Source of the DNA: a virus
Taxonomy: Duplodnaviria > Caudoviricetes
IMG/VR virus record: IMGVR_UViG_3300025018_000091
Reading direction: 5' to 3' (one strand)
Length of the DNA stretch: 64,000 nt
Shown: positions 1 to 12,318 of the stretch, piece by piece
Numbering within the stretch: the first letter of the stretch is position 1
Layout of the letters: every line of letters starts with the position of its first letter
Translations under genes and position numbers: made by a program
The notes under the pieces: model-generated
The model's database searches: none
Seen by the model: the letters and a program-made list of their open reading frames with translations, nothing else
What the model was told of the DNA's origin: nothing

Positions 1-219
1 CTGCCAGTCATACGAGTCAATCTTATTCCAGTTACCCGTAGCCACAAGTCCAGAATCGCCAGCATCATAACCAGGCTCAGCATATCTCTCATAGTGAAGC
101 TGAATCTCTTCGATTCGATTCTCCACATTAGTGCTAATGTTTGAAGCCATGCTTGCAGCAATCTCTAAGATTCGCTCAGCACGCCTTGCTATATTATGTT
201 GTCTTTCGTCGCTATTCAT
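1..219 (-). CDS. hypothetical phage protein (partial, runs off left edge)
   Basis: Hand translation from ATG at 219: MNSDERQHNIARRAERILE...YAEPGYDAGDSGLVATGNWNKID, open to position 1; hairpin repeat 13 nt upstream. Confidence 0.7.
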   Translation of the reverse strand, partial: MNSDERQHNIARRAERILEIAASMASNISTNVENRIEEIQLHYERYAEPGYDAGDSGLVATGNWNKIDSYDWQ

Positions 220-231
220 GCTAACACCCTT

Positions 232-252
232 GCCCCGGTTACTCGATGGGGC
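232..252. repeat. GCCCC-N11-GGGGC hairpin repeat, copy 1 of 15
   Basis: GCCCC GGTTACTCGAT GGGGC preceded by TT. Confidence 0.9.
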
Positions 253-560
253 GACGACTCCATGAATTAATTAACAGTAATGTAACCCCATTTTCGCATA
301 GTTTGCTTTCGTCTCTTCAACCGTGCTTTTATGCAATTGTTCGATTGCTTCAGGAACCTTAGTCAAAAGGAAAAAAACCTTTCTAGTTCATGCGGCTCAA
401 AACAATCTCCCAATTGCACCGATGCACGTTCAATGTAATGAGCAATTTCTGCCTCATCTGTGCAAAGACCACAAGTATGTCCCTCTATGGTATAGTTCTT
501 ATCACATTCACAATCAACACAGATAGGTGCATTCATGATTTTTCTCCTTTAAAAGATTGA

Positions 561-696
561 GAGAGTGTAGCTAGACCTTGCTCACAGCCAAACATAGGAA
601 TATTAAATTCCTTTGGAATAGCCATTTCCAATCAAACCGCTAAGGAGGAACACACATTATTCGCGGCTATATAGGTATATAGCGTCAAACACTCTC
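561..696 (-). ncRNA. putative structured ncRNA directly 3' of a tRNA-like element
   Basis: Closing inverted repeat GAGAGTGT (561-568)/ACACTCTC (689-696) encloses hairpins GCTATAT-AGGT-ATATAGC, TTGGAAT..TTCCAA and AGGAAT..ATTCCT; no credible ORF. Confidence 0.35.
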
Positions 697-697
697 G

Positions 698-779
698 GAC
701 GATAAAACAGGAATCGAACCTGTTTTCTATTCCGTTCAGCTTATGCCTCGGAATCGTCATACCAATAGACTATTATCGT
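698..779 (-). ncRNA. tRNA-like element with enlarged anticodon loop
   Basis: ACGATAA/TTATCGT acceptor, TA-GTC-TATTGGTAT-GAC D-arm, ATTCC/GGAAT stem with 16-nt loop, AACAGG-TTCGATT-CCTGTT T-arm. Confidence 0.6.
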
Positions 780-793
780 ACAGTACATTTACT

Positions 794-884
794 TGGTGCA
801 TACTGAGGAGTTGAACCTCAACCTGCATAATTCCAATAGCCATGGCTATTTTTGTAGAACCAGGCGCCGCCCACGACGAATGCA
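794..884 (-). ncRNA. tRNA-like element with extended anticodon arm
   Basis: TGCATTC/GTATGCA acceptor followed by CCA, TGAGG-TTCAACT-CCTCA T-arm, internal AATAGC-CATG-GCTATT hairpin. Confidence 0.45.
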
Positions 885-1222
885 TATCCACGTTTTTATT
901 AAGCAAGAAACGTGGAAAACTCCGAGGCAGATCTTTTTGCCCAAAAGATTGGCTCACACAAGAAAAAGGGCTTTCTTGATGTACCTCAAGAAATCGCTAG
1001 AAAGGGCTATAGACTTACACCAAATCTCATTTACTACCCTTTGATTATCCATATGGTGCATCACTGCCGAATAGTAAACCGCTTGGCGCACGCGCCTAGA
1101 TAAAAAAAGTATCTAAGCAAGTTAGTGAATCTATGGATCAATACCTGCTTACACAGTAAACATTTCTTAGATTCCCCATAGACATCTCGTAACTGCGATT
1201 TTCACTAACTTACTAGTCTCTA

Positions 1223-1546
1223 CTAGAAATGCCCACAATATCCAAATCCATCGGACTTGTAGGTTTTTTCCTCAATCTTAGGGAAACCATCCTCATACAT
1301 CTCTGTAGCAGATTCCCCAAACACATGCTTCCATATCTCTCCATCCTTCACCCCAAGATAGAAAACATGCGATGCGTTATGCCCAACAACATAGAAGTCA
1401 ATGCCTTGCTGCTGACATGATCGAGGCTCCAAACTCTGAATATACTCCAGATGAAGCTCAATCACAGATGCCAATAGCTCATCACCCTTGGCAAACTTCA
1501 TAGCAAGCTTTTGTCGCTTCTGATAAATATCTTTCGGCTTCGACAT
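1223..1546 (-). CDS. hypothetical protein
   Basis: 107-aa ORF, co-directional and packed with neighbours. Confidence 0.6.
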   Translation of the reverse strand: MSKPKDIYQKRQKLAMKFAKGDELLASVIELHLEYIQSLEPRSCQQQGIDFYVVGHNASHVFYLGVKDGEIWKHVFGESATEMYEDGFPKIEEKTYKSDGFGYCGHF

Positions 1547-1883
1547 GTGTTCGTGCTTTCTTGATTGGTCGCCGGTTTGGAACCGGTTTGTTACACCAAC
1601 GCTTGAAATCCTTACCCATATGCTTCTTTTTCGCTCGGATAAGAATCATTGCTTCAACCAATGGGAGATCCCCTCGTACTTGATTGCAAGCAAAGTGAGA
1701 AGGAGCTAGATTAGAACTTCCACACCCACCCTTGGAACGTAGAATCAAATGCTCCCTCGTGATCGATTCCATGTTGTCGAATGGTTCCCCGCACAATATA
1801 CACAAGCCATCCCATTTGTATAGTATTGTGCGGTATCCTTCATAAGGATCAAACTCTTTCTGTTGTTTCTCTGCACTACGCAT
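1482..1883 (-). CDS. HNH endonuclease
   Basis: CILCGEPF...TREHLILRSKGG..SNLAPSHFACNQVRGD matches the CxxC...H...N..H..CN HNH pattern; start moved to MRSAEK. Confidence 0.8.
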   Translation of the reverse strand: MRSAEKQQKEFDPYEGYRTILYKWDGLCILCGEPFDNMESITREHLILRSKGGCGSSNLAPSHFACNQVRGDLPLVEAMILIRAKKKHMGKDFKRWCNKPVPNRRPIKKARTHVEAERYLSEATKACYEVCQG

Positions 1884-2160
1884 GAGCACGTCGATCCTTG
1901 ATCGGATTCTCCGAATCATAAGGATATCCAATCGACTCCAAGTATTCCAAATACTCAGGAGCAGGCTCACCAAGGAAATATGTCGAACCACTCAATGTTT
2001 TGATGATTCGACCATTCACTTCCACAATCGGGCTTGTGATTACTGGACGAGGATCGTCATCACGATACCCCACCAAACAAACCGGATTGATCTCAGGTGC
2101 CAAGAATAGATCGTCTGACCTATATGACACTCCCCACTTCTCCAGCTGATATTCACCCAT
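1876..2160 (-). CDS. hypothetical phage protein
   Basis: 94-aa ORF with ITSPIVEVNGRIIKTLSGSTYFLGEP segment; abuts neighbours. Confidence 0.7.
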   Translation of the reverse strand: MGEYQLEKWGVSYRSDDLFLAPEINPVCLVGYRDDDPRPVITSPIVEVNGRIIKTLSGSTYFLGEPAPEYLEYLESIGYPYDSENPIKDRRAHA

Positions 2161-2350
2161 GTTCGCACCTCATTGCAATTGCTTCCGCAACGGAAGGCTC
2201 GGGTTCTGTGTGAATTGTTTCGTCGCTCCAAAGGTACATTCCAGTAGTCAACATCAATTGACCCCTTTCATCTACCTCAATTTCGTACTCATTGTAATGA
2301 ATACGAACAAGAAGCTCCCGATCAAAATCGGATATGTTCTCGATCTTCAT
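2153..2350 (-). CDS. hypothetical protein
   Basis: Fills gap between coupled ORFs; start MKIENISD. Confidence 0.5.
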   Translation of the reverse strand: MKIENISDFDRELLVRIHYNEYEIEVDERGQLMLTTGMYLWSDETIHTEPEPSVAEAIAMRCEHG

Positions 2351-2534
2351 CTTGTTCCTCGGGATGCATGTAGAAGTAATCATCCGTGGCATCTACCCTC
2401 GAACGAAACTCCTCATAAATCCCCGCTTGAATCAGTTGAACACGCAAAAGTTCCCATGCCTTACCAGATATCCCATATCCTTCAGGATCCATTAGCAAGG
2501 CTTCTGTCAACTCCCTCAACTCATTCTTGTTCAT
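2322..2534 (-). CDS. hypothetical protein
   Basis: 70-aa acidic ORF, 4-nt overlap with upstream ORF. Confidence 0.65.
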   Translation of the reverse strand: MNKNELRELTEALLMDPEGYGISGKAWELLRVQLIQAGIYEEFRSRVDATDDYFYMHPEEQDEDREHIRF

Positions 2535-2785
2535 TTGCGAACGTACCTTTCCAGATGACCAATCAAAACATCATCCTCCATGTAAAAAAGGTCATCCTCT
2601 ACCGGAAGTGCATTCTCCAATAATTGACCAAGACGAAGATTCGGCTTGCTCAACCACGCTACCATTATCCGCTGAATAATGGCTTTCTTATCTTCAGCCG
2701 TTTCCGCGCGTCCCTTCATTTCAATCCTCCCGCGATTAACGCGCTGCGTAATTACTTCTTGGAGAATAGAGCTAGATATGTCCAA
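2531..2785 (-). CDS. hypothetical protein
   Basis: 84-aa ORF with WLSKPNLRLGQLLENAL segment. Confidence 0.65.
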   Translation of the reverse strand: MDISSSILQEVITQRVNRGRIEMKGRAETAEDKKAIIQRIMVAWLSKPNLRLGQLLENALPVEDDLFYMEDDVLIGHLERYVRK

Positions 2786-2951
2786 CCAACCGAACCTCCA
2801 AAATTCAGGAAGAACGTAACCGCTCCAAACATTACTCGGTCAGGATCATACAACATCATGTATATGCTGCTAAATACAGCCAAATAACATATTGCCGCAA
2901 ATATGCTATATAATATCCTCATTCATTCCTCCAATCATTTTAGATTGTACT

Positions 2952-3026
2952 TGGGCGCACCGATACGATTCGAACGTATCAACTTCCCCAAAACAATTAG
3001 GGGCTTTACCATTAAGCTAGGCGCGC
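2952..3026 (-). tRNA. non-canonical or degenerate tRNA (anticodon ambiguous, possibly UGU)
   Basis: GCGCGCC/GGTGCGC acceptor plus encoded CCA, GCTT-AATGGTA-AAGC D-arm, GATACG-TTCGAAT-CGTATC T-arm; anticodon loop ATTGTTT lacks purine 37. Confidence 0.6.
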
Positions 3027-3088
3027 TTGGTCCTGAAAGTAACAGGTCCCTTATCTAACTTTCTTGTTCGTCCAGATATGCTTTTGAA

Positions 3089-3496
3089 TCAGGCGAATCG
3101 ACCGTGAGAATCACGCGTCTGACGAGACGCACGTAGACTCAATGCCTGCTTCGTATTGCCAGAAGTCTTCTGTGCCTTCTTGGTCGAAACCTTTCGCGCC
3201 ACCTTCTTGGTCGAAACCTTCCGAGTCACCTTCTTGGGCGCCTGTACCTTGACGTACTTGGGCAGAAGGATCATTTCGACAATCTGCTTGCCGAAATTCA
3301 CCACCTTAGCTTTGGACTTCCCACTCGCATACAACCTGACACTGATACTCGGAGAATCATCTGTGTCAAAGTTGACATCGACTTCCCCTGCATACCGAGA
3401 CCAAACCTTTGCCGACACAACCTTGGAATCCAAGACATGCTGCGTATGCTTGTATCCACAGTCGGATTCTGCCACAACCGTATTCCACTTTGTCAT
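3089..3496 (-). CDS. hypothetical protein with Lys-rich repetitive tail; tandem paralog of 3544-3792
   Basis: Shares SDCGYK..QHVL....SAKVWS.Y.GEV...FDTDDSPSIS..LYASGK; tail KKVTRKVSTKKVARKVSTKK. Confidence 0.8.
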   Translation of the reverse strand: MTKWNTVVAESDCGYKHTQHVLDSKVVSAKVWSRYAGEVDVNFDTDDSPSISVRLYASGKSKAKVVNFGKQIVEMILLPKYVKVQAPKKVTRKVSTKKVARKVSTKKAQKTSGNTKQALSLRASRQTRDSHGRFA

Positions 3497-3543
3497 GTTT
3501 TCTCTCCTGCTAAAACCTTAGTTATTGGACCTTCAGACCCGAT

Positions 3544-3792
3544 TCACAGATACTTGGGCGCGAAATGTCGCTCGACAATCTCCTTGCCCATTTCCACCAT
3601 CTCTTCCTTGGTCTTCCCACTCGCATACAGCTTTCCACTGATGCTCGGAGAATCATCCGTGTCGAAAGAGAAGTGAACCTCTCCACTGTAATCAGACCAA
3701 ACCTTGGCGGAAACCTTGTCTCCTTCCAAGACATGCTGATCAACCTTGTATCCACAATCACTTCTACCTTCAACCAAATTCCAGCTTGCCAT
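3544..3792 (-). CDS. hypothetical protein; tandem paralog of 3089-3496
   Basis: Near-colinear similarity with 3089-3496 over about 80 aa. Confidence 0.8.
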   Translation of the reverse strand: MASWNLVEGRSDCGYKVDQHVLEGDKVSAKVWSDYSGEVHFSFDTDDSPSISGKLYASGKTKEEMVEMGKEIVERHFAPKYL

Positions 3793-3850
3793 GTGTGTAC
3801 CTCCTAGTTATGAATTCTCAAGTTTACACATTACACTCATCCATCATGGA

Positions 3851-4387
3851 TTATTCGTAATGCGGTCGCGGCGTTCGTTCGCCCGGATGTTCCTCAACTA
3901 CAATCATGATATCTATACCACCAAGCACAGAATAGATGTTTCCTTCTCGTCGCTCACCATAGATCGATTCCAAATGAGCCTTGAACGTTTCCACCTGTGA
4001 TTGATCAACCGCTTCCAAGTGGTATCCCCACTTGCACAACTCGTACTTCTCTCCAGTCTCATGGTAAACTACACCCTCACGAGCACAAGAACAATTATGA
4101 CAATAGTCCTTATGCCCCTCAACCGAAATTGCCTTGACCGGAATGGATGCAATCGGCTCGTGATGATTGAACCACCAACCACCCTCCTCCGGTCCACCAT
4201 AATGACGAGTCACCTCATAAGCATTCACATACAACAATGCCTCAGAACCAGGCTTCACGTAATCATCTGGTGGACATTCACATTCACCATCCTCATCAGG
4301 AATTGCTCCACAACAAGAACAACCATGATAGTATGATGCCAATCCTTGATCCAAATCGCCCTGTTCGTCGTAACATTGATTACACAT
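3851..4387 (-). CDS. Cys-rich hypothetical phage protein
   Basis: CNQC, CSCC, CHNC clusters and YGGPEEGGWW motif; GGAG RBS and hairpin repeat upstream. Confidence 0.75.
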   Translation of the reverse strand: MCNQCYDEQGDLDQGLASYYHGCSCCGAIPDEDGECECPPDDYVKPGSEALLYVNAYEVTRHYGGPEEGGWWFNHHEPIASIPVKAISVEGHKDYCHNCSCAREGVVYHETGEKYELCKWGYHLEAVDQSQVETFKAHLESIYGERREGNIYSVLGGIDIMIVVEEHPGERTPRPHYE

Positions 4388-4430
4388 GATTGACTCTCCA
4401 ATCCGTTATCGTTGCTGTACCTACTACCTT

Positions 4431-4451
4431 GCCCCCCTCACTCGATGGGGC
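4431..4451. repeat. GCCCC-N11-GGGGC hairpin repeat
   Basis: GCCCC CCTCACTCGAT GGGGC, 44 nt upstream of ATG 4387. Confidence 0.9.
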
Positions 4452-4456
4452 ACGGC

Positions 4457-4762
4457 TCAGTAGCCCTGACTCCATGACTTTCCAGCTTCCAGCCATACAC
4501 TCATAACCGCTTCCTTTGCTTCCTTCAGTGCAAGACCAGTAAGCTCACGCACAGCCTTAATCTGCGCAATCTTATCATTAGGATTGTTCAAACATACAAC
4601 CATTAAAGCCCTGACTTCAGGCAATGCAATCAGCTTTGACACATTGGCTTTGACTTCAAGAGCTTCCTCAGCTACGTTCAACTCCGAACGCAAACGCCCT
4701 TTGTCCATCGACAACGCTTCAATTCTATCAAGCAGTTTCTCAACAACGTCTTCTTCGTACAT
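4457..4762 (-). CDS. coiled-coil plus ribosomal protein bL12 (L7/L12) C-terminal-domain-like protein
   Basis: NDKIAQIKAVRELTGLALKEAKEAV matches the bL12 CTD signature K(I/V)..IK.VR..TGLGLKEAK..V; start MYEEDVV. Confidence 0.75.
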   Translation of the reverse strand: MYEEDVVEKLLDRIEALSMDKGRLRSELNVAEEALEVKANVSKLIALPEVRALMVVCLNNPNDKIAQIKAVRELTGLALKEAKEAVMSVWLEAGKSWSQGY

Positions 4763-4766
4763 GTGT

Positions 4767-5147
4767 TTATCCCTCGAAAAGTTTGATTTCTCGTACTTCG
4801 AACTTGTAAGTCCTATCGTGGTTTGACCATTCGCTTGCGGCTTGTTTGGCTTGATGTACCGAATCGTATACAGCCAGACCATTACCTTGGTATTTTGACG
4901 CAACTCGAATAACTAAACCATCCTTTGGATCAATCACAAGTACACCATACACCGGATCCTTTCCCATATGGAAGATTTGCTTATTGGTACTTGTCTGAAT
5001 AGGTGCATCTTCATCTCTCAGATTCTGACGAATCGACTTACGATACGATTCATCATCCTCCGGCAAACCAAGACCTTGATACCGAGAAATACCTTGCGAT
5101 TCCCCATACTTATCAAGTTCCTTACCTGTCAATGAATTGAGATCCAT
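4767..5147 (-). CDS. hypothetical protein
   Basis: 126-aa ORF in tight operon. Confidence 0.65.
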   Translation of the reverse strand: MDLNSLTGKELDKYGESQGISRYQGLGLPEDDESYRKSIRQNLRDEDAPIQTSTNKQIFHMGKDPVYGVLVIDPKDGLVIRVASKYQGNGLAVYDSVHQAKQAASEWSNHDRTYKFEVREIKLFEG

Positions 5148-5158
5148 GTGTTTGTCCT

Positions 5159-5524
5159 TTAGCCAGTATACATGATTGAAGCATCACTCATCGCTTGCGC
5201 AAATGAGTATGGTTTCCATGCAGATGATTCTGACCACATTCGTCGATAGGACCATTCTCCATCAGATGTGACTCGATAGATCGTATCGAAGAACTTTTCG
5301 AAATTGTCCGAAATGGTAACGGAACCATCATCCTGCTCTTCAATGAAAAGCAAGTCATCCACGAATGACTTATCATCAGGTTCATTCCAAACTTGACGCG
5401 CATTCTTTTTGACCGCTTCCGAAAACTCTTGTACTTGCTTGTTCATTGGTTTTTCTCCCAATTTCAGAAACTTGCTCACGAGCACGCCGCTGCAATGCTT
5501 CATGAACTTCTTGCCATGAACCAT
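5159..5524 (-). CDS. hypothetical protein
   Basis: 121-aa ORF in tight operon (alternative start 5446). Confidence 0.6.
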   Translation of the reverse strand: MVHGKKFMKHCSGVLVSKFLKLGEKPMNKQVQEFSEAVKKNARQVWNEPDDKSFVDDLLFIEEQDDGSVTISDNFEKFFDTIYRVTSDGEWSYRRMWSESSAWKPYSFAQAMSDASIMYTG

Positions 5525-5560
5525 GTTTTAAGACATACTCATATTCCATGCCGCCTCCTA

Positions 5561-5944
5561 TTAGATGGGTTGAATCTCTTCTCGGGCTTCCAGCTTACGC
5601 ACGTACTCCTTCTGCTCTTCAAAGGTGAGCTTTGATAGCTCATCCATGAATGTTCCAATACGTTCGTAAACCATGCCTTGCTCCAATTCCCATGGAGTTG
5701 TCATGTTCTCAGCAGCACAGAAGGCAAAACCCTCTCCATCAGGATCATCATTCATGTTCTTGATGGTCTGCTGAACGGACTTGTACGCCATCTCAGACGC
5801 AACTTCATGCAATCGATCATTGAAGTCCGTTTCCTCATCCACTTGACCAGTGTTACCACAATGATAACAGGCGTCTTGAACCATACGCCCATCCTCTTCA
5901 TAGTATTCCCAACCAGTCCCACCACACCTTAAACACTCACACAT
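5561..5944 (-). CDS. DnaJ-type CxxCxGxG zinc-finger protein
   Basis: CLRCGGTG...CYHCGNTGQV. Confidence 0.7.
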   Translation of the reverse strand: MCECLRCGGTGWEYYEEDGRMVQDACYHCGNTGQVDEETDFNDRLHEVASEMAYKSVQQTIKNMNDDPDGEGFAFCAAENMTTPWELEQGMVYERIGTFMDELSKLTFEEQKEYVRKLEAREEIQPI

Positions 5945-5975
5945 GATAATTTTCCCTTTTAGAGAAAAGTGAATG

Positions 5976-6173
5976 TTACTTTCTCTCTTCTCGCTCTTGA
6001 ACAAGAAGCGAAATTAGCTTTTGACGCGCAGCGTCAGATAAAGCCACTTGAAAGCCACCATTGAATGTCAATAGAACGCCCTTGTCCTTGTCATTCGACT
6101 CATTCAAAAGAACCCACATCTGTGAGCCTCCATAACATTCAATGAGATTCTCTCTACTTGGCTTTTTCCACAT
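5976..6173 (-). CDS. hypothetical protein
   Basis: 65-aa ORF, co-directional. Confidence 0.5.
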   Translation of the reverse strand: MWKKPSRENLIECYGGSQMWVLLNESNDKDKGVLLTFNGGFQVALSDAARQKLISLLVQEREERK

Positions 6174-6244
6174 GTCTCTTACCCTTTTAGAAGCGTTGCA
6201 AACTGGGAATGTTAAGACCGAATTGATCTAATCCTGTGAAGCAG

Positions 6245-6316
6245 TGGGTCCAGAGGGACTTGAACCCTCAACTCTCGGGTTAAAAGCCCGTTACTCTACC
6301 ATTGAGTTATGAACCC
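6245..6316 (-). tRNA. tRNA-Lys(UUU)
   Basis: GGGTTCA-TA-ACTC-AATGGTA-GAGT-A-ACGGG-CT-TTT-AA-CCCGA-GAGTT-GAGGG-TTCAAGT-CCCTC-TGGACCC-A canonical cloverleaf; CCA not encoded. Confidence 0.95.
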
Positions 6317-6507
6317 ATGCGGCTAAACCGCAACCGATCAAGCATATCAACCAATTCATATGGTCGAAAGTCTTTCAAGTCTATCCAACCACGTCTCTCT
6401 GATTCTTCTGGTATTGGACCAGAAAGAAGTTCATCTAACTCCTCATCAGTTGGATAGATAAAATTATCCTCAAGAATATTGCGTAATTGTCCCTTTCTAG
6501 TATTCAT
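6307..6507 (-). CDS. hypothetical protein
   Basis: Start MNTRKG; coupled to upstream ORF; 10-nt overlap with the tRNA 5' end. Confidence 0.5.
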   Translation of the reverse strand: MNTRKGQLRNILEDNFIYPTDEELDELLSGPIPEESERRGWIDLKDFRPYELVDMLDRLRFSRMGS

Positions 6508-6952
6508 TGTCGTAACGAGTTTCCATGTATTCCATGTAACGCTCGTCTTCATTCCAATGCTCGTAAGGGCGCATCATTCTTGTACCCAAATCCGAAAGCA
6601 ATTCCTCAATCACTTCAATTCTATCGTGATCGATTCGAGCTTTCTTATTCACCTCTTCGTAGAAGTCATCAATCGCCTTCTGACGAATGGCAGATAGTTC
6701 TTCCTTGGTGATATTCGGATTCTTCTCCTCAGCTTCACACTCAGCGTCATATGCCAAGTCTTGTGCTTGCTCAGCAAGATAATCCGCTTCGTCATGCCTC
6801 TCATCATCAGAGACCCATGACTTCTGCTCAATCTTCTGATGATATTCATTCCACTCAGAAGCGAGCTTGGACACCATCTCACGACGAATCGTACTTTTGA
6901 GAGTTTCCTCCCCAGTCTCGTCATACTCACCATCCATTACGAATCCACGCAT
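6497..6952 (-). CDS. acidic helical hypothetical protein
   Basis: Start moved to MRGFVM because the longer ORF overlaps the tRNA-like element at 6979-7068. Confidence 0.7.
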   Translation of the reverse strand: MRGFVMDGEYDETGEETLKSTIRREMVSKLASEWNEYHQKIEQKSWVSDDERHDEADYLAEQAQDLAYDAECEAEEKNPNITKEELSAIRQKAIDDFYEEVNKKARIDHDRIEVIEELLSDLGTRMMRPYEHWNEDERYMEYMETRYDNEY

Positions 6953-6978
6953 GACTTTTCTCTTGTTAGAGAATAGAT

Positions 6979-7068
6979 TGGTAGCAGAGGTTGGATTCGA
7001 ACCAACATAATAATACGTCCTCGGATCCAAGGATATGTGCCACCAGATCCAACCTGGTTAACTCTGCT
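6979..7068 (-). ncRNA. tRNA-like element with enlarged anticodon arm and encoded CCA
   Basis: Perfect AGCAGAG/CTCTGCT acceptor, A discriminator, CCA, GTTGG-TTCGAAT-CCAAC T-arm, ACCAG-GTTGGAT-CTGGT D-arm, TCCT-TGGATCCG-AGGA apex; 90 nt. Confidence 0.7.
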
Positions 7069-7079
7069 AAATAAGGACA

Positions 7080-7134
7080 GTTTTAGAACTTACCCCAGGT
7101 TCAAAGGTAGTTTTGGAACTTACCCTCAAGGTTC
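7080..7134. repeat. GTTTTAGAACTTACCCCAGGTTC repeat, two tandem copies (third at 10949-10971)
   Basis: 7080-7102 identical to 10949-10971; 7110-7134 is a variant. Confidence 0.8.
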
Positions 7135-7294
7135 AAGATTAAGTCCATGACATATAGATACAAATATGACCAAAAAATTAGGACGCTATTACTAAACGTA
7201 TCCATACAACCGTCCTACATGTATGGCGTTATGACGAATCTGTTTGAAGGGCTAAGGGCAGAGTCGATTCACTTCTGCCCCATAACCCTATGAT

Positions 7295-7678
7295 TCAGCT
7301 TGCGGGCTTGGGCTCGGGCTGGTCTGCCCAACGGCAAACTCCACCACCCTTTCCCTTCCCGATATGGAAGGGAGCACCCGAATCGCGCTCGCCAGCACGA
7401 TCCCGAATGTAAGCCTGGACCTTTTCGGTCAAGGTCTTGAAGTTCTCGGGCTGAACATTCATGCGCTGAACCGCCATGCTGGTGATGGCAGGCATATTCA
7501 GCTTTGCCCCAGGGTATTGGTCGAAGACTGCATTGACAGCTTCTCCCACAGCTTCAGCTTCCAATTCCCTTTCGGTCTGGAAACGAAGCAGATCCCCGGA
7601 GAACTTTCGCTCGGTTCCTTCGAGATCGATGGAACCATCGGGATTCCGAACACAGTAGCTTTGCAGATTGATGGTCGT
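7295..7678 (-). CDS. putative winged-helix-like nucleic-acid-binding protein; paralog of 10997-11356
   Basis: Shared CVRN.DGSI...EAV.AVFD...GA.L.MP.I.S.A and F..(G/S)KGKGGGV; fold is inferred. Confidence 0.6.
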   Translation of the reverse strand, partial: TTINLQSYCVRNPDGSIDLEGTERKFSGDLLRFQTERELEAEAVGEAVNAVFDQYPGAKLNMPAITSMAVQRMNVQPENFKTLTEKVQAYIRDRAGERDSGAPFHIGKGKGGGVCRWADQPEPKPAS

Positions 7679-7780
7679 CATGATGACACCTCCCACGGAA
7701 TGAATCCTTGGCGCTTATCATGCTGAGAATCGACACAATTCGATTGCCATTGACTCGCGCCGTGTTGTACTACTTGGCTT

Positions 7781-8109
7781 GCCCCCGTCACCTGATGGGG
7801 TACCGCTTTCCGTTCCCAGCGAAACAACATCGTTTCGCATCGAATCGCGGCAACCAACATCGCCTCCCTTGCCCCGGTCACCTGATGGGGTAGGTCAGTT
7901 CCGCTCACAGCGGAAAACAACAGGGTTACGTTCGCAGCGGAATCCGTCATTCCGTTCCCGCTGCAACGCGCCGTCCTACAAGGGCATAATTGCCCCCGTC
8001 ACCTGATGGGACAGGCATTCCGTTCCCAGCGGAACGTTGCCTCCCCGTCGCCGTTCGTTGCTGCGTCGCATCGAACACAACCTACCTTGCCCCGGTCACC
8101 TGATGGGGC
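7781..8109. repeat. tandem array of four hairpin repeats (7781, 7871, 7992, 8089) with associated TTCCG-N7-CGGAA hairpins
   Basis: Loops CGTCACCTGAT or GGTCACCTGAT; unit spacing 90, 121 and 97 nt. Confidence 0.9.
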
Positions 8110-8117
8110 AGGCATCC

Positions 8118-8324
8118 TGGCACGATCCTTGCTACGCACGTCGCGCGCGCGCAGATCATGAGGTATCCCGATCTTGGCACGCTTGCATATTGCGAGAATC
8201 ATGCCATAACCTTTTGACCCTACGTATAGCGGCACATAATGTCACGCCACATATGGTCAATCCCCGGCTTGCGGCTCGTCGTCGCATGGTGGCACGATTG
8301 TCGCACCTTGCAATCGGCGTGCCA
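8118..8324. promoter_or_regulatory. cluster of sigma54-type -24/-12 motifs
   Basis: + TGGCAC-GATCC-TTGCT (8118); - TGGCAT-GATTC-TCGCA (from 8206); opposed pair 8290-8324 (+ TGGCAC-GATTG-TCGCA, - TGGCAC-GCCGA-TTGCA). Confidence 0.65.
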
Positions 8325-8427
8325 GCGCTCGCCGAAAGCCAAAAAACCCATATCCCCAAAAGTCCAGAATTAGAGAGAATCTGGAACCCCTGGAAGGATA
8401 GAGGGGATGGGTAAATGCGGGCGGGGT

Positions 8428-8459
8428 AAAATTCCGCTCCCACTGGACGTGGGAGCGGA
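8428..8459 (-). terminator. probable intrinsic terminator
   Basis: 11-bp stem TCCGCTCCCAC/GTGGGAGCGGA then ATTTT on the minus strand. Confidence 0.55.
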
Positions 8460-8508
8460 TGCACAGAACGTGCTCTGAAAGCAGACATGGGGAATGAATG
8501 CTAAAAAC

Positions 8509-8703
8509 TTAGCTGATATGCAGCGTGTGAATCATTCGGCGCAATTGAATTCGTTCCATTCGCGCACGTCGAGCTTCACCGATTCCCCTTTCCTCGCACA
8601 AGGCTAGGAATTGGAACCCTCGTTCAGCTTCAATGCGCTCCCGACGTGCAGATTCACTCATTGATGAGAATGCAGAACCCCTTTCAGAAGTTTTCGAATC
8701 CAT
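8509..8703 (-). CDS. hypothetical protein
   Basis: 64-aa ORF with GGAG upstream. Confidence 0.5.
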   Translation of the reverse strand: MDSKTSERGSAFSSMSESARRERIEAERGFQFLALCEERGIGEARRARMERIQLRRMIHTLHIS

Positions 8704-8716
8704 CTGAATGGCTCCT

Positions 8717-9055
8717 TCAGATCATGGTCTTGAGTCGGAAAGCGTCAGCCCACAAGGCTTGCGTATCAGGATATGCACGATACCGCGAGCGACCGATTCT
8801 TTCGATGATTCCCTCATCTACCAACTTCTTGAGAGCGCCTCGAATGTCGCCCACTGAATAGAGCGAACCCAAACGCTTGTTCAAGTGTTCGGTCAAGTCA
8901 GAATCTTCCACGCCTTCATCGAATCGGCAAACTCCCCGAACGACCAAGGCACAACGATGCGCCATTCCATGGACAATTGTCGTTCGATCCGGTTCTGCGT
9001 AGACTTTGGTATCGTGTGTGTTGTAGGTTGTTTTCCTGCGAAACCTCATGTGCAT
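8717..9055 (-). CDS. winged helix-turn-helix DNA-binding protein
   Basis: SVGDIRGALKKLVDEGIIERIGRSRYRA fits a wHTH recognition helix plus wing. Confidence 0.7.
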   Translation of the reverse strand: MHMRFRRKTTYNTHDTKVYAEPDRTTIVHGMAHRCALVVRGVCRFDEGVEDSDLTEHLNKRLGSLYSVGDIRGALKKLVDEGIIERIGRSRYRAYPDTQALWADAFRLKTMI

Positions 9056-9086
9056 TCTCCTTGTTTCGAGTCAAGCTCTTTGGATG

Positions 9087-9503
9087 TTACAGTCTTGGCG
9101 TATACAAGAGCACGTTACTGCCCTCGTAAAACTCCTTCGCCTCTTTCAAACTACTACCCGTCAATTCGCGAACCTTCTTGATTGCGTTGATTCGATTGTC
9201 TGGAAACTCCTCTTTCAGAATCTGACGAATCTGATGATAAGAGGAATATCGCCTTTCGGAATAATCCCTCCCCATTACGAATAGACGCATGATCTCATTC
9301 TCCACTTGAGGCGAAAGATCCGGGGGAGAAAACGAATTCTTTTGCACAGGAGGAATCTTCGCGGTTTTCTTGAAGATCTCCAATTCCTGTTCAAGCTTCT
9401 TCAGATCATCCGTGGCAATAATCAGAGCACAATTCAAGGATGTATTCTCACGAATGAGATCATCCAAGTAAGACAATGGTACAGAAACTTTCACATCTTT
9501 CAT
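9087..9503 (-). CDS. coiled-coil plus bL12 CTD-like protein (second copy)
   Basis: DNRINAIKKVRELTGSSLKEAKEFYE. Confidence 0.75.
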   Translation of the reverse strand: MKDVKVSVPLSYLDDLIRENTSLNCALIIATDDLKKLEQELEIFKKTAKIPPVQKNSFSPPDLSPQVENEIMRLFVMGRDYSERRYSSYHQIRQILKEEFPDNRINAIKKVRELTGSSLKEAKEFYEGSNVLLYTPRL

Positions 9504-9644
9504 TCAATCCTCCCATCCATGACTTTTGTACTTCAATCTCGTAGGTGGAACCCGTCCATAGATCCATTCGTAGACTATTGCTAGACATACCAATGGACCT
9601 ATGACGAATATTGTGAGGAGAAGGTCAATTCTCTTGATCGTCAT
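9504..9644 (-). CDS. small membrane protein
   Basis: MTIKRIDLLLTIFVIGPLVCLAIVYEWIY single hydrophobic segment. Confidence 0.45.
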   Translation of the reverse strand: MTIKRIDLLLTIFVIGPLVCLAIVYEWIYGRVPPTRLKYKSHGWED

Positions 9645-9819
9645 GCTCTCCCCAATCTTCCTCCATCCATTCGTTCTTGTTCCTGGGCGCCTTGTACTTC
9701 TTGGAATTGATCCTTGCCCCTCTGAGAGCTTCCCCCTTCGCTTGAAGGATTGCAAGCGTATTGCGTTCACGCTTGCGGGGGATCGTCAGGGTGAAGTGGA
9801 TTCCCTTTTTGCTTCCCAT
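9625..9819 (-). CDS. small basic protein
   Basis: MGSKKGIHFTLTIPRKRERN..., fills gap in operon. Confidence 0.45.
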   Translation of the reverse strand: MGSKKGIHFTLTIPRKRERNTLAILQAKGEALRGARINSKKYKAPRNKNEWMEEDWGEHDDQEN

Positions 9820-9958
9820 TGTCTTCCTCATAGTGGGTCAGATTCTTATTGATCTTATTCCCACAATCTGAACAGGTGTATCCGTAATCTGTTTTGACCA
9901 TACGCCTCATGCTATCACACACAAGGCAATATGGTCGCCAATCAGGTGAATGTGTCAC
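9767..9958 (-). CDS. zinc-ribbon protein
   Basis: CLVC...CSDCGNKI. Confidence 0.6.
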   Translation of the reverse strand: MTHSPDWRPYCLVCDSMRRMVKTDYGYTCSDCGNKINKNLTHYEEDNGKQKGNPLHPDDPPQA

Positions 9959-9963
9959 GGGGT

Positions 9964-10149
9964 TTAGTTCAAGGTTGTGTTCGGATTCGTAGCTAGTTGC
10001 TTCTGAAGATTCGACATCTTCTCAAGAACCAACTCGTAACACTTCTTGAGCAAGTATGCTGCATCCTCATCCGTGGGAGGAGGAGTAATCGCACCAGTCT
10101 TGACCAGAATGCCAGCAACGATAACAGCAGCAGCCATGAGAGGATCCAT
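9964..10149 (-). CDS. hypothetical protein
   Basis: AACAACGGAG RBS and hairpin repeat 41 nt upstream. Confidence 0.65.
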   Translation of the reverse strand: MDPLMAAAVIVAGILVKTGAITPPPTDEDAAYLLKKCYELVLEKMSNLQKQLATNPNTTLN

Positions 10150-10189
10150 CGTTTTCTCCGTTGTTTGTTTGCGTTACACACATTGGTTT

Positions 10190-10210
10190 GCCCCGCTCAC
10201 TCGATGGGGC
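10190..10210. repeat. GCCCC-N11-GGGGC hairpin repeat
   Basis: GCCCC GCTCACTCGAT GGGGC. Confidence 0.9.
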
Positions 10211-10282
10211 ATCGTTATACAGTCTCAGCGGAACTCGTATGATGGCACACGGAATGCAACGTGCAAACGGTGTACCACTCAG

Positions 10283-10357
10283 AGGAATGGTCAGGAATCG
10301 AACCTGCGTTGCCACTTACTCCCCCAATCCTATCACAGATCGAGGAATATCCATTCC
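10283..10357 (-). ncRNA. tRNA-like element lacking a recognisable D-arm
   Basis: GGAATGG/CCATTCC acceptor, GCAGG-TTCGATT-CCTGA T-arm, one long internal stem TTCCTC..GGGGGA. Confidence 0.4.
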
Positions 10358-10375
10358 CGCCCTAGGGCTTAAGCT

Positions 10376-10579
10376 TCACTTCACAGATACAACCACACCG
10401 TCCTTAACTGTGACTGTGGCATACCACTTGTGTGGTTCGGGATAATGTGGACCTTCCACATATTCCGTCCCATTGTCCTTGGGCGTCCCAATACCGGGAG
10501 AATACAACCGCACTTGTTCTCCATTCTTGACCGCTTCCTTGAGAGCCCTTTTGGACTTGAAGTTTTTGGTGGTATACAT
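10376..10579 (-). CDS. small conserved-looking hypothetical phage protein
   Basis: NFKSKRALKEAV...VEGPHYPEPHKWYATVTVKDG. Confidence 0.75.
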   Translation of the reverse strand: MYTTKNFKSKRALKEAVKNGEQVRLYSPGIGTPKDNGTEYVEGPHYPEPHKWYATVTVKDGVVVSVK

Positions 10580-10583
10580 ATGG

Positions 10584-10790
10584 TCATTCTTCTCCGCAGC
10601 CGTAGTTGTAGCTTACTCCGTTGGGGCGAGAGATCAATCCCTCTTGCTCCAATGCCTTTTCGAGACGTGCCTTCTTGGAATTGAGAGCGCGCAATTGTCG
10701 CTTGGCATTGCGGATTGCATTCAACTCCCGTCGAATGGCACGAATCTCTTTTTTGGTATCGCTAATCTGTCCGTAAACTTCGCTCCACAT
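10584..10790 (-). CDS. coiled-coil hypothetical protein
   Basis: GGAGG RBS before MWSEV; heptad-like KKEIRAIRRELNAIR. Confidence 0.6.
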   Translation of the reverse strand: MWSEVYGQISDTKKEIRAIRRELNAIRNAKRQLRALNSKKARLEKALEQEGLISRPNGVSYNYGCGEE

Positions 10791-10840
10791 GTTCCGTTCC
10801 TCCATGTTTTGGGTGCATTCAAGGTTGCACCTAACCCGGC

Positions 10841-10905
10841 AGCCATGTGCAGGAGTCGAACCTACCTTACGCAACTTCCGTATAGCCGATCCTTGCTATA
10901 TGGAG
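10841..10905 (-). ncRNA. degenerate minimal tRNA-like element
   Basis: GTAGG-TTCGACT-CCTGC T-arm, TAGC-AAGGATCG-GCTA and TACG-GAAGTTG-CGTA hairpins, weak acceptor. Confidence 0.3.
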
Positions 10906-10996
10906 TTAACGTACGCTTGTCACCATCGACACAAGGCATAATAGGGCAGTTTTAGAACTTACCCCAGGTTCCATCCCACTCACCACCCAGAAAGTC

Positions 10997-11356
10997 TTAC
11001 TTCTTCTCGGGCACGTCCCGCAGACGCACCACACCGCCACCCTTTCCCTTCGAAACCTTGAATTCGTTGTTGGTTCGAATCCACAGACCCACCGCCTTCT
11101 GGGTCTCGACGAATTCGGAGGGACCGATTCCCATCAGACCACACGCTGCGGAACAGATGTGGGGCATGGGAAGGGTTGCGCCAAGGTGCGCATCGAACAC
11201 GGCGTGAACCGCTTCCGAGATTGCACCCAAGGATTCGGCTTCCTTCTGAGCCAATTCCAGCAATTGGTCCTCGACCTCGAAAAGCGTCGCTTGGACATTG
11301 ATGGAGCCATCGTCGTTGCGGACACAAGTGCTGCTGAGATTGCTGATCTTTTCCAT
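10997..11356 (-). CDS. paralog of 7295-7678
   Basis: CVRNDDGSI...EAVHAVFD...FKVSKGKGGGVVRL. Confidence 0.7.
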   Translation of the reverse strand: MEKISNLSSTCVRNDDGSINVQATLFEVEDQLLELAQKEAESLGAISEAVHAVFDAHLGATLPMPHICSAACGLMGIGPSEFVETQKAVGLWIRTNNEFKVSKGKGGGVVRLRDVPEKK

Positions 11357-11443
11357 GGCTTTTCTCCTTACACGTACAGTGGGGCAGTTTATTGACATTG
11401 TACCCCAGGTCGTTATTGTTTCGCTCGTTACATTGACTGGCTT

Positions 11444-11464
11444 GCCCCGGTCACCTGATGGGGC
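11444..11464. repeat. GCCCC-N11-GGGGC hairpin repeat
   Basis: GCCCC GGTCACCTGAT GGGGC. Confidence 0.9.
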
Positions 11465-11470
11465 AAGCTC

Positions 11471-12070: not shown

Positions 12071-12109
12071 TGTTCTACTCCGTTGTTCGTTCGTTGTACC
12101 GCTTGGGTT

Positions 12110-12130
12110 GCCCCGGTCACCTGATGGGGC
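12110..12130. repeat. GCCCC-N11-GGGGC hairpin repeat
   Basis: GCCCC GGTCACCTGAT GGGGC, 40 nt upstream of ATG 12070. Confidence 0.9.
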
Positions 12131-12135
12131 AGGTC

Positions 12136-12318
12136 CTACTTGCTGCCGAACAGCATTCCGGTGATCATCACCATGGCGCTAGCGCCAACCGATCCCCAGA
12201 ATGAGATTCCGTTATGCAAGTATTGTGCCACTTGAGGAAACTGTGGCACAAGAAAGAAGTTTACCGCACAGAAGATGCAAGCCGCCAACATAACCCACAT
12301 GACAAGTAGCTTCCACAT
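12136..12318 (-). CDS. small two-TM membrane protein
   Basis: MWKLLVMWVMLAACIFCAVNFFLV...FWGSVGASAMVMITGMLF; AACAACGGAG RBS. Confidence 0.7.
   Translation of the reverse strand: MWKLLVMWVMLAACIFCAVNFFLVPQFPQVAQYLHNGISFWGSVGASAMVMITGMLFGSK

What the first reader, a model, noticed from the sequence alone, without database searches (positions are those of the whole stretch)
698..10905. Set of tRNA-like RNAs with intact acceptor/T-arm but remodelled anticodon arms
Seen: besides canonical tRNA-Lys(UUU), there are intergenic minus-strand elements at 698-779, 794-884, 2952-3026, 6979-7068, 10283-10357 and (weakly) 10841-10905. Each keeps a T-arm with a TTCRANT loop and a paired acceptor stem, and three encode CCA. 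The anticodon arms are aberrant: a 16-nt loop, long extended stems, a loop lacking purine 37, or no D-arm. Two have a 6-bp T-stem with the acceptor stem running directly into CC(A/G). Inference: retention of the elbow and CCA end with loss of decoding features suggests non-translational roles. Options are decoys for anticodon nucleases or tRNA-sensing defences, RNase P/Z punctuation sites for the long early transcript, or small anticodon-loop introns.
Basis: partly seen in the sequence, partly recalled or inferred. Interest (0 to 1): 0.72.

Follow-up and report, generated by a model that had tools for sequence, protein, structure and literature searches.

The report
Non-decoding tRNA look-alikes in phage early genes
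Six small RNA folds among the early genes of a giant groundwater phage keep the upper body of a tRNA but have no usable anticodon arm; selection keeps them, and they most likely tell tRNA-trimming enzymes where to cut early transcripts, though no RNA data test this.

Summary
On the minus (gene) strand of the GC-rich early block (1-16 kb), one canonical tRNA-Lys(UUU) and six tRNA-like elements each pair a T-arm (loop UUCRANN) with an acceptor stem: 6 hits against 0.07-0.27 expected from shuffles.

Only E1 (699-778) passes Rfam's tRNA threshold, and it has a 16-nt "anticodon loop". E3 (2952-3026) is a near-cloverleaf with a 6-bp T-stem and U37. The sixth element really spans 10842-10937.

Four elements have homologues in the closest relative, a 44-kb metagenome contig. 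There the acceptor, D and T stems are kept through compensatory changes (E2 and E3, P about 0.001). The anticodon arm is replaced or hypervariable: 16 versus 34 nt in E1, and 12 of 22 columns changed in E3. So they are selected structured RNAs, not plain pseudogenes, decoding tRNAs or intron-bearing tRNAs.

Best reading (about 45%): they are cis signals for RNase P, RNase Z and the CCA-adding enzyme that shape early transcript ends, like plant-mitochondrial t-elements. Trans-acting decoys remain possible. No RNA data exist.

This scan has noted similar anticodon-less tRNA mimics in this genome's tRNA cluster and in over 30 other phage genomes.

The parts
699..778 (-). E1: tRNA-like element. 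It has a 6-7-bp acceptor stem, a D-arm with a GG loop, a 5-bp 'anticodon' stem closing a 16-nt loop, and a T-arm. No CCA follows (tail UCCG).
   Evidence: Rfam tRNA 34.6 bits. Found by the module scan. The homologue in the 44-kb relative (L016:15829-15925) has a 34-nt loop. Together with the syntenic L034 element there are 15 pairs, 100% paired, 4 with changes on both sides.
794..884 (-). E2: tRNA-like element. It has an acceptor stem with one U.U, a small hairpin with loop UGGG in place of the D-arm, a long two-part inner arm, a T-arm, and CCA at 794-796. It lies 15 nt upstream of E1.
   Evidence: Against L016:14288-14378 there are 29 pairs, 98.3% paired, 2 double changes plus one U.U to G-C change. 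Substitution test P = 0.0008. The homologue abuts tRNA-Gly(TCC) with no spacer.
2952..3026 (-). E3: near-canonical cloverleaf with a 6-bp T-stem, no nucleotide 26, anticodon loop AUUGUUU (U37), and CCA directly after the acceptor stem. It ends 29 nt before the ATG at 2922.
   Evidence: ARAGORN Thr(TGT). Rfam 23.4 bits, below 29. Fold z = -3.3. The homologue L029:16670-16744 keeps the 6-bp T-stem and the tail, but its anticodon arm differs.
6245..6316 (-). Canonical tRNA-Lys(UUU), with no CCA encoded. It is the only standard tRNA in the block.
   Evidence: Rfam 70.1 bits and ARAGORN. A 96% identical copy sits at a different position in the relative. A tRNA-Lys also occurs in L019.
6979..7068 (-). 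E4: tRNA-like element with a perfect 7-bp acceptor stem, a 7-bp hairpin with loop UGG, a 6-bp hairpin with a tetraloop, a T-arm and encoded ACCA. It lies 8 nt after a promoter-like motif and ends 26 nt before the ATG at 6952.
   Evidence: Rfam 24.8 bits. No homologue was found: the same slot in the relative holds a plain hairpin.
10284..10357 (-). E5: the weakest element. It has a perfect 7-bp acceptor stem at 74-nt spacing and a T-arm with a G.A top pair, but no D-like GG loop. It starts 18 nt after the stop codon at 10376.
   Evidence: Rfam tRNA-Sec 19.1 bits only. It passes the stricter module scan. Its fold is not better than shuffles. No homologue occurs in the relative.
10842..10937 (-). 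It has an acceptor stem with one U.U, a small hairpin with a GG loop, a long inner arm and a T-arm. It lies 9 nt after the promoter-like motif, and about 36 nt separate it from the ATG at 10805.
   Evidence: The homologue L012:11114-11238 (125 nt) shows a T-stem G-C to A-U change and an acceptor U.U to C-G change.
7074..7125 (-). Two copies of a promoter-like motif (a hairpin GAAC...GUUC followed by UAAAACUG) directly upstream of E4.
   Evidence: 3 matches against 0 expected. The motif is conserved before the E6 homologue in L012 and directly before a gene in L038.
10943..10971 (-). Third copy of the same motif, directly upstream of E6.

Best explanation
These are non-decoding, tRNA-shaped RNA modules transcribed with the phage's early small genes.

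Selection keeps what tRNA end-processing enzymes read: a stacked acceptor/T helix of about 12 bp, the T-loop, and a GG-containing D-like loop that can form the tRNA elbow. The anticodon arm is free to change.

The most likely mechanism is as follows. RNase P cuts at the 5' edge of each module. RNase Z or 3' exonucleases, with the CCA-adding enzyme, finish the 3' edge. This would give early messages defined ends: short 26-36-nt leaders for the genes after E3, E4 and E6, and a 3' end 18 nt after the stop codon before E5. It would also release stable 75-100-nt tRNA-like RNAs (E1, E2).

Shown here: the structures, their excess over chance, their strand and positions, and their selective conservation. 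Inferred: recognition and cleavage by the tRNA enzymes, and any effect on message stability.
For: 1. The excess is large and strand-specific: 6 against 0.07-0.27 expected. In 302 kb of related early blocks there are 35 sense and 2 antisense modules, and only about 11 are ARAGORN tRNAs.

2. The upper body is conserved with compensation, measured against the 44-kb relative.
- E3: 22 pairs, 95.5% paired, 3 double changes.
- E2: 29 pairs, 98.3% paired.
- E6: acceptor and T stems, 12 pairs, 95.8% paired, 1 double change.
- E1 with L034: 15 pairs, 100% paired, 4 double changes, reached by 4 of 500 shuffles.
- Random substitutions would break pairs: P = 0.0008 for E2 and P = 0.0008 for the E3 acceptor, D and T stems.

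3. The anticodon arm is unconstrained. In E3, 12 of 22 columns changed against 8 of 53 elsewhere (P = 0.001). The E1 loop has 12 of 16 aligned columns changed plus an 18-nt indel, against 10 of 66 elsewhere (P = 8e-6).

4. The stack length is kept while the split shifts: 6/6 in E1 but 7/5 in its L034 counterpart. This fits enzymes that measure the acceptor/T helix (RNase P as a ruler, PMC4919913).

5. D-like hairpin loops carry GG in E1-E4 and E6, as needed for the elbow.

6. Positions fit end formation. The elements are intergenic and on the sense strand. The E2 homologue starts at the base after tRNA-Gly.

7. A related 480-kb phage encodes a full RNase P RNA (272 bits) and CCA-type nucleotidyltransferases.

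8. There is precedent. Plant-mitochondrial t-elements mark mRNA 5' and 3' ends (PMC1920247). RNase P cleaves phage C4 and M3 RNAs and operon mRNAs (PMC11143913). The tRNA-like domain of YrlA is cut by RNase P and receives CCA (PMC4201824).
Against: - There are no RNA data, so no end, cleavage or even expression is shown.
- E4 and E5 have no homologue. The slot of E4 holds a plain hairpin in the closest relative, which argues for a generic structural role there.
- E4 and E6 lie only 8-9 nt after a promoter-like motif. RNase P would have almost no leader to remove, so they are not 'punctuation' between cistrons.
- The 480-kb relative has none of these elements in its 60-kb early block, so they are dispensable for the clade.
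- Each comparison rests on two or three sequences.
- Tails are heterogeneous: CCA in three elements and none in the other three, and the discriminator is ambiguous in E2 and E3.
Confidence: 0.45

Rival explanations
1. The elements are trans-acting tRNA mimics. After release, the stable tRNA-shaped RNAs bind and occupy a host or phage factor that reads the tRNA elbow or acceptor end. Candidates are EF-Tu, a tRNA-targeting defence nuclease, a modification enzyme or a synthetase. Processing would only be the way they are made.
For: - The selection is on tRNA-specific tertiary features (T-loop, GG loop, stack length), which a mere cut site may not need.
- E1 and E2 sit in a 670-nt stretch poor in reading frames, far (480 nt) from the next gene.
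- The same block carries an early tRNA-Lys(UUU) and two proteins with an L7/L12 C-terminal domain match. This hints at a translation-directed takeover module.
- According to earlier notes, the same genome holds other anticodon-less tRNA mimics and Y RNAs.
Against: - No partner is identified.
- The variable arms show no complementarity above chance to the early block.
- There is no anticodon loop, so they cannot decoy anticodon nucleases.
- The elements turn over quickly between relatives.
Confidence: 0.2
2. The elements are generic 5' or 3' structural caps or module boundaries. Any stable fold in these slots protects the message ends or serves as a recombination joint between gene cassettes, and tRNA-derived sequence is merely one convenient source.
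For: - The slot of E4 holds a simple long hairpin in the relative.
- E4 and E6 follow duplicated paralogous genes and a repeated motif.
- One low-depth contig from another aquifer sample departs from the window exactly at 6979, the 3' end of E4 (table 7).
Against: A generic cap does not explain the invariant T-loop, the G53-C61 pair, the GG loops or the kept 12-bp stack across unrelated sequences.
Confidence: 0.12
3. The elements are plain tRNA pseudogenes: recently inactivated copies decaying without function.
For: - E4 and E5 have no homologue.
- The fold of E5 is no better than that of shuffles.
- tRNA content turns over quickly in these blocks.
Against: For E1, E2, E3 and E6, substitutions avoid breaking pairs (P about 0.001) and cluster in the anticodon arm. 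The odd features of E3 (6-bp T-stem and its tail) are identical in the relative.
Confidence: 0.12
4. The elements are working decoding tRNAs with unusual arms or with tiny anticodon-loop introns.
For: ARAGORN calls E3 Thr(TGT). With intron mode it calls E1 Gln(CTG) with a 7-nt intron. E1 passes Rfam's tRNA threshold.
Against: - Homologues do not keep the anticodon. E3 reads UGU but its homologue has a U-rich 8-nt loop, which ARAGORN calls Gln(TTG). E1 is called Gln with a 7-nt intron but its homologue Lys(CTT) with a 23-nt intron.
- E3 has U37, and its fold prefers a 5-nt loop.
- Introns this small in bacterial or phage tRNAs are, to my knowledge, unknown.
Confidence: 0.05

Closest known systems
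t-elements of plant mitochondria and the mitochondrial tRNA-punctuation model (Forner et al. 2007, PMC1920247)
   Same: Both are tRNA-like folds without a decoding role, embedded in transcripts at the 5' or 3' side of protein genes. Both are proposed as cis signals for RNase P and RNase Z.
   Different: The t-elements sit in organelles and have mapped RNA ends. Here the setting is a phage early block with no RNA data. Several elements carry greatly enlarged inner arms (up to 125 nt in relatives), and some sit right after a promoter-like motif.
Phage small RNAs processed by RNase P: C4 antisense RNA of P1/P7, M3 RNA of phi80, and the T-even 'tRNA-like molecules' (as listed in PMC11143913)
   Same: They are phage-encoded, non-decoding RNAs whose acceptor-like helix makes them RNase P substrates.
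   Different: C4 acts by antisense loops. Here no complementarity above chance was found. These elements keep a full T-arm and elbow.
YrlA-type bacterial and phage Y RNAs (Chen et al. 2014, PMC4201824; Rfam RF02553)
   Same: They have a tRNA-like domain with T-arm and D-arm. In Mycobacterium smegmatis this domain is cut by RNase P and extended with CCA.
   Different: In YrlA the RNA ends lie on the anticodon side and a Ro60-binding stem is present. These elements have the normal tRNA strand order, and RF02553 gives no match at E up to 10.
tRNA-Other of Bacillus cereus (Rogers et al. 2012, PMC3399842)
   Same: It is a pseudo-tRNA that does not translate but serves as a tRNA-like element inside a larger RNA.
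   Different: It is a single chromosomal locus next to a genomic island with a regulatory phenotype. Here there is a family of elements in a phage operon.
Non-canonical acceptor-branch tRNAs (8/4 and 9/3 allo-tRNAs; 8/5 and 9/4 tRNA-Sec; Mukai et al. 2017, PMC5389517)
   Same: The split between acceptor stem and T-stem departs from 7/5 while the stack length is kept.
   Different: Those are decoding tRNAs with longer acceptor stems. E1 and E3 and several relatives shift the other way, to a 6-bp T-stem (6/6, or 7/6 counting the -1:73 pair), and lack a usable anticodon arm.

Membership tests
Canonical tRNA (Rfam RF00005) | Score at or above the curated gathering score (29 bits) | tested here: inconclusive
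   E1 scores 34.6 (met). E4 scores 24.8 and E3 23.4 (not met). E2, E5 and E6 have no tRNA match at E up to 10; E5 matches only tRNA-Sec at 19.1 against a cut-off of 47.
Canonical tRNA (Rfam RF00005) | 7-nt anticodon loop with U33 and purine 37 on a 5-bp stem | tested here: not met
   E1 has a 16-nt loop. E3 has U33 but U37. E2, E4 and E6 have long or tetraloop arms. E5 has none.
Canonical tRNA (Rfam RF00005) | Anticodon kept among orthologues | tested here: not met
   E3 reads UGU but its homologue has a U-rich 8-nt loop. The E1 loop is 16 nt against 34 nt in its homologue.
Intron-bearing tRNA | Removal of a defined insert restores a consistent anticodon loop in homologues | tested here: not met
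   ARAGORN intron mode gives Gln(CTG) with a 7-nt intron for E1 and Lys(CTT) with a 23-nt intron for its homologue.
t-element / tRNA-like processing signal | tRNA-like acceptor and T-arm fold embedded in an mRNA precursor next to a coding region, on the sense strand | tested here: met
   All six are on the gene strand. E3, E4 and E6 end 26-36 nt before start codons. E5 starts 18 nt after a stop.
t-element / tRNA-like processing signal | Mapped RNA termini coincide with the borders of the fold | not testable with these tools
   No RNA run holds this DNA.
t-element / tRNA-like processing signal | Cleavage by RNase P and/or RNase Z | not testable with these tools
   There is only indirect support: a related phage encodes RNase P RNA and CCA-type enzymes.
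YrlA / Y RNA (RF02553) | Match to the covariance model; permuted tRNA domain with a Ro60-binding stem | tested here: not met
   No RF02553 match at E up to 10 in 1-13 kb. The strand order is that of a normal tRNA.
tmRNA tRNA-like domain | Detected by ARAGORN's tmRNA search | tested here: not met
   The default ARAGORN run, which also searches for tmRNA, found none. Only low-threshold permuted calls appear at -ps80. By reading, no G3:U70 occurs in the stems listed.

The most novel reading that the evidence does not exclude
The elements are not only cut sites. They form a fast-evolving family of stable, non-decoding tRNA-shaped small RNAs. A constant upper body docks on a tRNA-reading factor such as EF-Tu, a defence nuclease or sensor, or a modification enzyme. 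The hypervariable 'anticodon' arm carries lineage-specific function. Together with the early tRNA-Lys(UUU) and the L7/L12-like early proteins, they would form a takeover or counter-defence module aimed at the host's translation or tRNA-surveillance machinery.
Probability: 0.15. Interest if true: 0.8.

Novelty: new variant of a known kind. Interest (0 to 1): 0.55.

Why it matters
If phage early operons use tRNA look-alikes to borrow the cell's tRNA-trimming enzymes, or bring their own RNase P, then a mode of message processing known from mitochondria also operates in viruses of bacteria. It would also explain many 'pseudo-tRNA' calls in phage genomes.

In the full-text library available here, no paper links tRNA punctuation to phage operons.

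The elements also show which parts of a tRNA are needed for non-decoding roles: a stack of about 12 bp, the T-loop and a GG loop. They add a 6-bp T-stem layout that the survey of non-canonical tRNAs I read does not list (PMC5389517).

The practical test is simple: in vitro cleavage and CCA-addition assays on six short transcripts.

Tried and rejected
- **RNA evidence.** No RNA holder is listed for this stretch. Contigs from four other aquifer or cold-spring DNA runs were laid on 600-11000 and gave no variants inside the elements.
- **Close relatives in public phage records.** A megablast of 600-7200 against GenBank phages found nothing. A tblastn with one early protein found only weak hits in terminal repeats of Bacillus phages. 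Peptide-pattern scans of IMG/VR with three early proteins found nothing. The promoter-like motif is absent from IMG/VR. One relative contig had no DNA on file.
- **The 480-kb relative (G001).** Its 60-kb GC-rich block has a single tRNA-Glu and no tRNA-like element at the spot that corresponds to E4.
- **Intron reading.** Rejected.
- **Known tRNA-like Rfam families.** No match for viral TLS families, YrlA, tmRNA or mascRNA.
- **Antisense idea.** The longest complementary words between each element and the 16-kb early block are at chance level. The exception is a 16-mer that is the reverse complement of the quasi-palindromic E4 T-arm.
- **Sigma-70 promoters and intrinsic terminators.** Neither is enriched.
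- **A uniform '6/6 plus discriminator plus CCA' layout for E1-E3.** It holds for E1 and E3 but not cleanly for E2, so I do not claim it as a rule.

Full report
**Setting**

The window is part of a 444,127-bp contig that recurs in aquifer and groundwater metagenomes. Earlier notes of this scan describe it as a huge groundwater phage with a large tRNA cluster, Y RNAs and its own RNase P RNA elsewhere in the genome.

Bases 1 to about 15,500 form a block of 42-54% G+C, packed with small minus-strand genes and repeats. The rest of the window is about 30% G+C. A related 480-kb phage (IMG/VR, handle G001) has the same kind of G+C-rich block at one end: 48-61% against about 40% in the adjacent 20 kb.

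Yes. ARAGORN finds tRNA-Lys(TTT) at 6244-6316 and a 'tRNA-Thr(TGT)' at 2952-3025. At its curated threshold, Rfam finds only the tRNA-Lys. With a relaxed E-value it gives the following:
- 699-778: 34.6 bits, above the 29-bit threshold, with a 16-nt loop on the anticodon stem.
- 6982-7068: 24.8 bits.
- 2955-3026: 23.4 bits.
- 10284-10357: 19.1 bits, and only to the tRNA-Sec model.

I wrote a simple scan for a 5-bp hairpin with loop T-K-C-R-A-N-N, followed at once by a 7-nt strand that pairs (at least 6 of 7) with a strand 35-110 nt upstream.
- On the minus strand of 1-16 kb it finds six places: 700-778, 797-884, 2956-3025, 6246-6316, 6983-7068 and 10842-10937.
- 1000 dinucleotide shuffles give a mean of 0.27 and at most 3.
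- A stricter rule that tolerates one mismatch at the top of the T-stem brings in 10284-10357 and gives 6 against 0.07.
- Every T-arm-like hairpin on that strand has an acceptor partner.

**Anatomy**

- **E1 (699-778).** It has a normal D-arm with a GG loop and a normal T-arm. Its anticodon stem closes a 16-nt loop that folds into a small extra hairpin.
- **E2 (794-884).** A 4-5-bp hairpin with loop UGGG replaces the D-arm. The anticodon arm is replaced by a two-part helix of 13 pairs. CCA is encoded.
- **E3 (2952-3026).** It folds into a clean cloverleaf (z = -3.3, 57% of the ensemble). It has a 6-bp T-stem, no nucleotide 26 and U at position 37. The acceptor helix runs straight into CCA. If the outermost G-C is read as a -1:73 pair, this becomes a 6/6 stack plus C73 plus CCA.
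- **E4 (6979-7068).** It has a perfect 7/5 stack and ACCA. Two inner hairpins have loops UGG and GAUC.
- **E5 (10284-10357).** It has a perfect acceptor stem at tRNA length but a poor interior. It is the weakest element.
- **E6 (10842-10937).** It has a small hairpin with a GG loop, a long inner arm and a T-arm.

All but E5 therefore keep what the tRNA elbow needs: the T-loop, the closing G-C pair and a GG loop.

**Relatives**

The closest relative is a 44-kb JGI contig (loci L012, L016, L029), collinear with the window at about 65-85% nucleotide identity in the matched segments.

- **E2** has a homologue there at 87% identity. It begins at the base after a true tRNA-Gly(TCC).
- **E1** has a homologue whose loop is 34 nt instead of 16.
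- **E3** has a homologue at a different position with the same 6-bp T-stem and the same tail. ARAGORN calls it 'Gln(TTG)'.
- **E6** has a 125-nt homologue behind the same upstream motif.

Counting pairs on these alignments:

| Element | Pairs | Paired | Changes |
|---|---|---|---|
| E3 | 22 | 95.5% | 3 pairs changed on both sides |
| E2 | 29 | 98.3% | 2 double changes, and one U.U becomes G-C |
| E6 (acceptor and T) | 12 | 95.8% | 1 double change |
| E1 | 20 | 95% | no covariation |

A further syntenic element in another lineage (L034) lets the E1 family show 15 pairs, all paired, 4 with double changes. Only 4 of 500 shuffles reach this. At the mismatched acceptor position of E2, three lineages read U.U, G-C and A-U.

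I also placed the observed number of substitutions at random. This breaks far more pairs than observed: P = 0.0008 for E2, P = 0.0008 for the E3 acceptor, D and T stems, and P = 0.009 for all E3 helices.

The anticodon-arm region behaves in the opposite way.
- E3: 12 of 22 columns changed against 8 of 53 elsewhere (P = 0.001).
- E1 loop: 12 of 16 aligned columns changed plus an 18-nt indel, against 10 of 66 elsewhere (P = 8e-6).

The split of the stack also shifts between counterparts while its length stays the same: 6/6 in E1 and 7/5 in L034.

**Turnover**

- E4 and E5 have no homologue. The E4 slot in the relative holds a plain hairpin behind the same motif. The E5 slot holds an extra gene.
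- The slot of E3 in the relative holds a small, weak tRNA-like fold ending in A-CCA. I found this by reading, and its fold is not significant.
- The relative has further elements that the window lacks: L016:16067-16187, L016:18003-18095, L029:16748-16812 and L029:19385-19482.
- Across 302 kb of related early blocks, fetched with a conserved anchor protein (the 293-aa protein whose gene starts at window 219), the scan finds 35 sense and 2 antisense modules. About 11 are ARAGORN tRNAs: Lys, Leu, Ile, Arg and the E3 homologue that ARAGORN calls Gln.
- The distant 480-kb relative has only a tRNA-Glu in its block.

So this is a lineage-level, fast-turning family, not a fixed set.

**Context in the window**

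- E3 ends 29 nt before the ATG at 2922.
- E4 ends 26 nt before the ATG at 6952.
- About 36 nt and a small hairpin separate E6 from the ATG at 10805.
- E5 begins 18 nt after the stop at 10376. It precedes a sigma-54-like palindrome and the GCCCC hairpin cassette.
- E2 and E1 lie 15 nt apart in a 670-nt stretch with few reading frames.
- E4 and E6 follow, by 8-9 nt, a repeated motif. This motif also precedes the E6 homologue, and in a more distant relative it directly precedes a gene. It is therefore probably a promoter or leader signal.
- E4 and E6 each follow one of two paralogous genes.

**What it most likely is**

The data show selected, structured, non-decoding tRNA-shaped RNAs. This excludes chance, and for four of the six it excludes plain decay. 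The anticodon is not kept and the supposed introns disagree between homologues, which excludes ordinary or intron-bearing tRNAs.

The features under selection are those read by RNase P, RNase Z and the CCA-adding enzyme (PMC4919913 on the stack and elbow). A related phage encodes RNase P RNA (272 bits) and CCA-type nucleotidyltransferases. The positions match those of plant-mitochondrial t-elements, which sit at the 5' or 3' ends of messages (PMC1920247).

RNase P is already known to cut phage C4 and M3 RNAs and operon mRNAs (PMC11143913). It also cuts the tRNA-like domain of a Y RNA, which then receives CCA (PMC4201824).

I therefore favour cis-acting end-forming modules at about 45%. The main alternative is trans-acting tRNA mimics at about 20%. 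Generic structural caps or module boundaries and dead pseudogenes each stand at about 12%, mainly on account of E4 and E5.

**Limits**

- There are no RNA data.
- Each family has two or three sequences.
- The alignments of the inner arms are unreliable.
- The −1:73 pairing and the 6/6 layout are readings, not measurements.

**Relation to earlier notes**

This scan has already reported anticodon-less tRNA mimics in the tRNA cluster of this same genome, and similar 'punctuating' elements in more than 30 other phage genomes. Those notes are not independent evidence. They do mean this case is one more member of a recurring, apparently unpublished pattern. In the full-text library, no paper connects tRNA punctuation with phage operons.

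Noticed in passing
window 6245-6316 (-); L016:16380-16453; L019:5230-5305; L010:17320-17391; L027:5491-5567: The one canonical tRNA of the early block is tRNA-Lys(UUU). Close relatives keep it (96% identical in L016) but at different positions. More distant relatives carry tRNA-Glu(UUC) instead. From my own knowledge, both are classic targets of anticodon nucleases, so an early replacement supply is a possible counter-defence.
   Followed up: partly
window 9087-9503 (-) and 4457-4903 (-): Two small early proteins match the C-terminal domain of ribosomal protein L7/L12 (PF00542, 32 bits against a cut-off of 25.9). Homologues in relatives carry the same precomputed hit. They may mimic the ribosomal stalk that recruits translation GTPases.
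   Followed up: partly
window 7074-7102, 7106-7125, 10943-10971 (-); L012:11088; L038:5619: A repeated motif consists of a short hairpin (GAAC...GUUC, with a compensated CAC/GUG variant in L012 at the E4 slot) followed by UAAAACUG. It sits 8-9 nt before E4 and E6 and directly before genes in relatives. It is probably a phage-specific promoter or leader signal.
   Followed up: partly
window 11068-11083 (-), inside gene 10997-11398: A 16-nt stretch is the exact reverse complement of the E4 T-arm region. It lies in the coding sequence of the gene that precedes E6. The paralogue 7295-7696 lacks it. It may be chance or a trace of an inverted element.
   Followed up: partly
window 1-15500 against 16000-64000; G001 420-480 kb (L008-L010): There is a sharp G+C border: 42-54% against about 30%. 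The same kind of G+C-rich terminal block occurs in the 480-kb relative (48-61% against about 40% in the adjacent 20 kb), so it is a clade feature rather than an assembly chimera or a recent transfer.
   Followed up: partly
window 8173-8206, 8285-8324, 10238-10277, 12524-12640, 12755-12794, 14098-14305, 15502-15535: About ten quasi-palindromic repeats read, on the minus strand, like sigma-54 promoters (TGGCAYG-N4-TYGCA). One lies directly after E5. This is also the subject of a separate note of this scan.
   Followed up: no
window 229-15369, 15 copies: A GCCCC...GGGGC hairpin cassette is repeated before early genes. One copy (10187-10212) follows E5 and the palindrome, and a similar copy follows a 114-nt tRNA-like element in L014 (5291-5404). 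This is the subject of a separate finding.
   Followed up: no
window 7295-7696 and 10997-11398 (-): These are paralogous 133-aa genes. Each is followed by the motif, a tRNA-like element and a small gene, so this is a duplicated cassette. Both match one gene in G001 (L009:6414-6821), which has no tRNA-like element after it.
   Followed up: partly
window 28512-29603 (-): The phage encodes a bacterial-type class I peptide chain release factor (PCRF and RF-1 domains). It is conserved at 51-60% identity in two huge IMG/VR phages.
   Followed up: no
window 6979 (table 7, run X4): One low-depth contig from another aquifer sample matches the window up to the 3' end of E4 and then continues with unrelated sequence. 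This may be a recombination joint at the border of the element.
   Followed up: no
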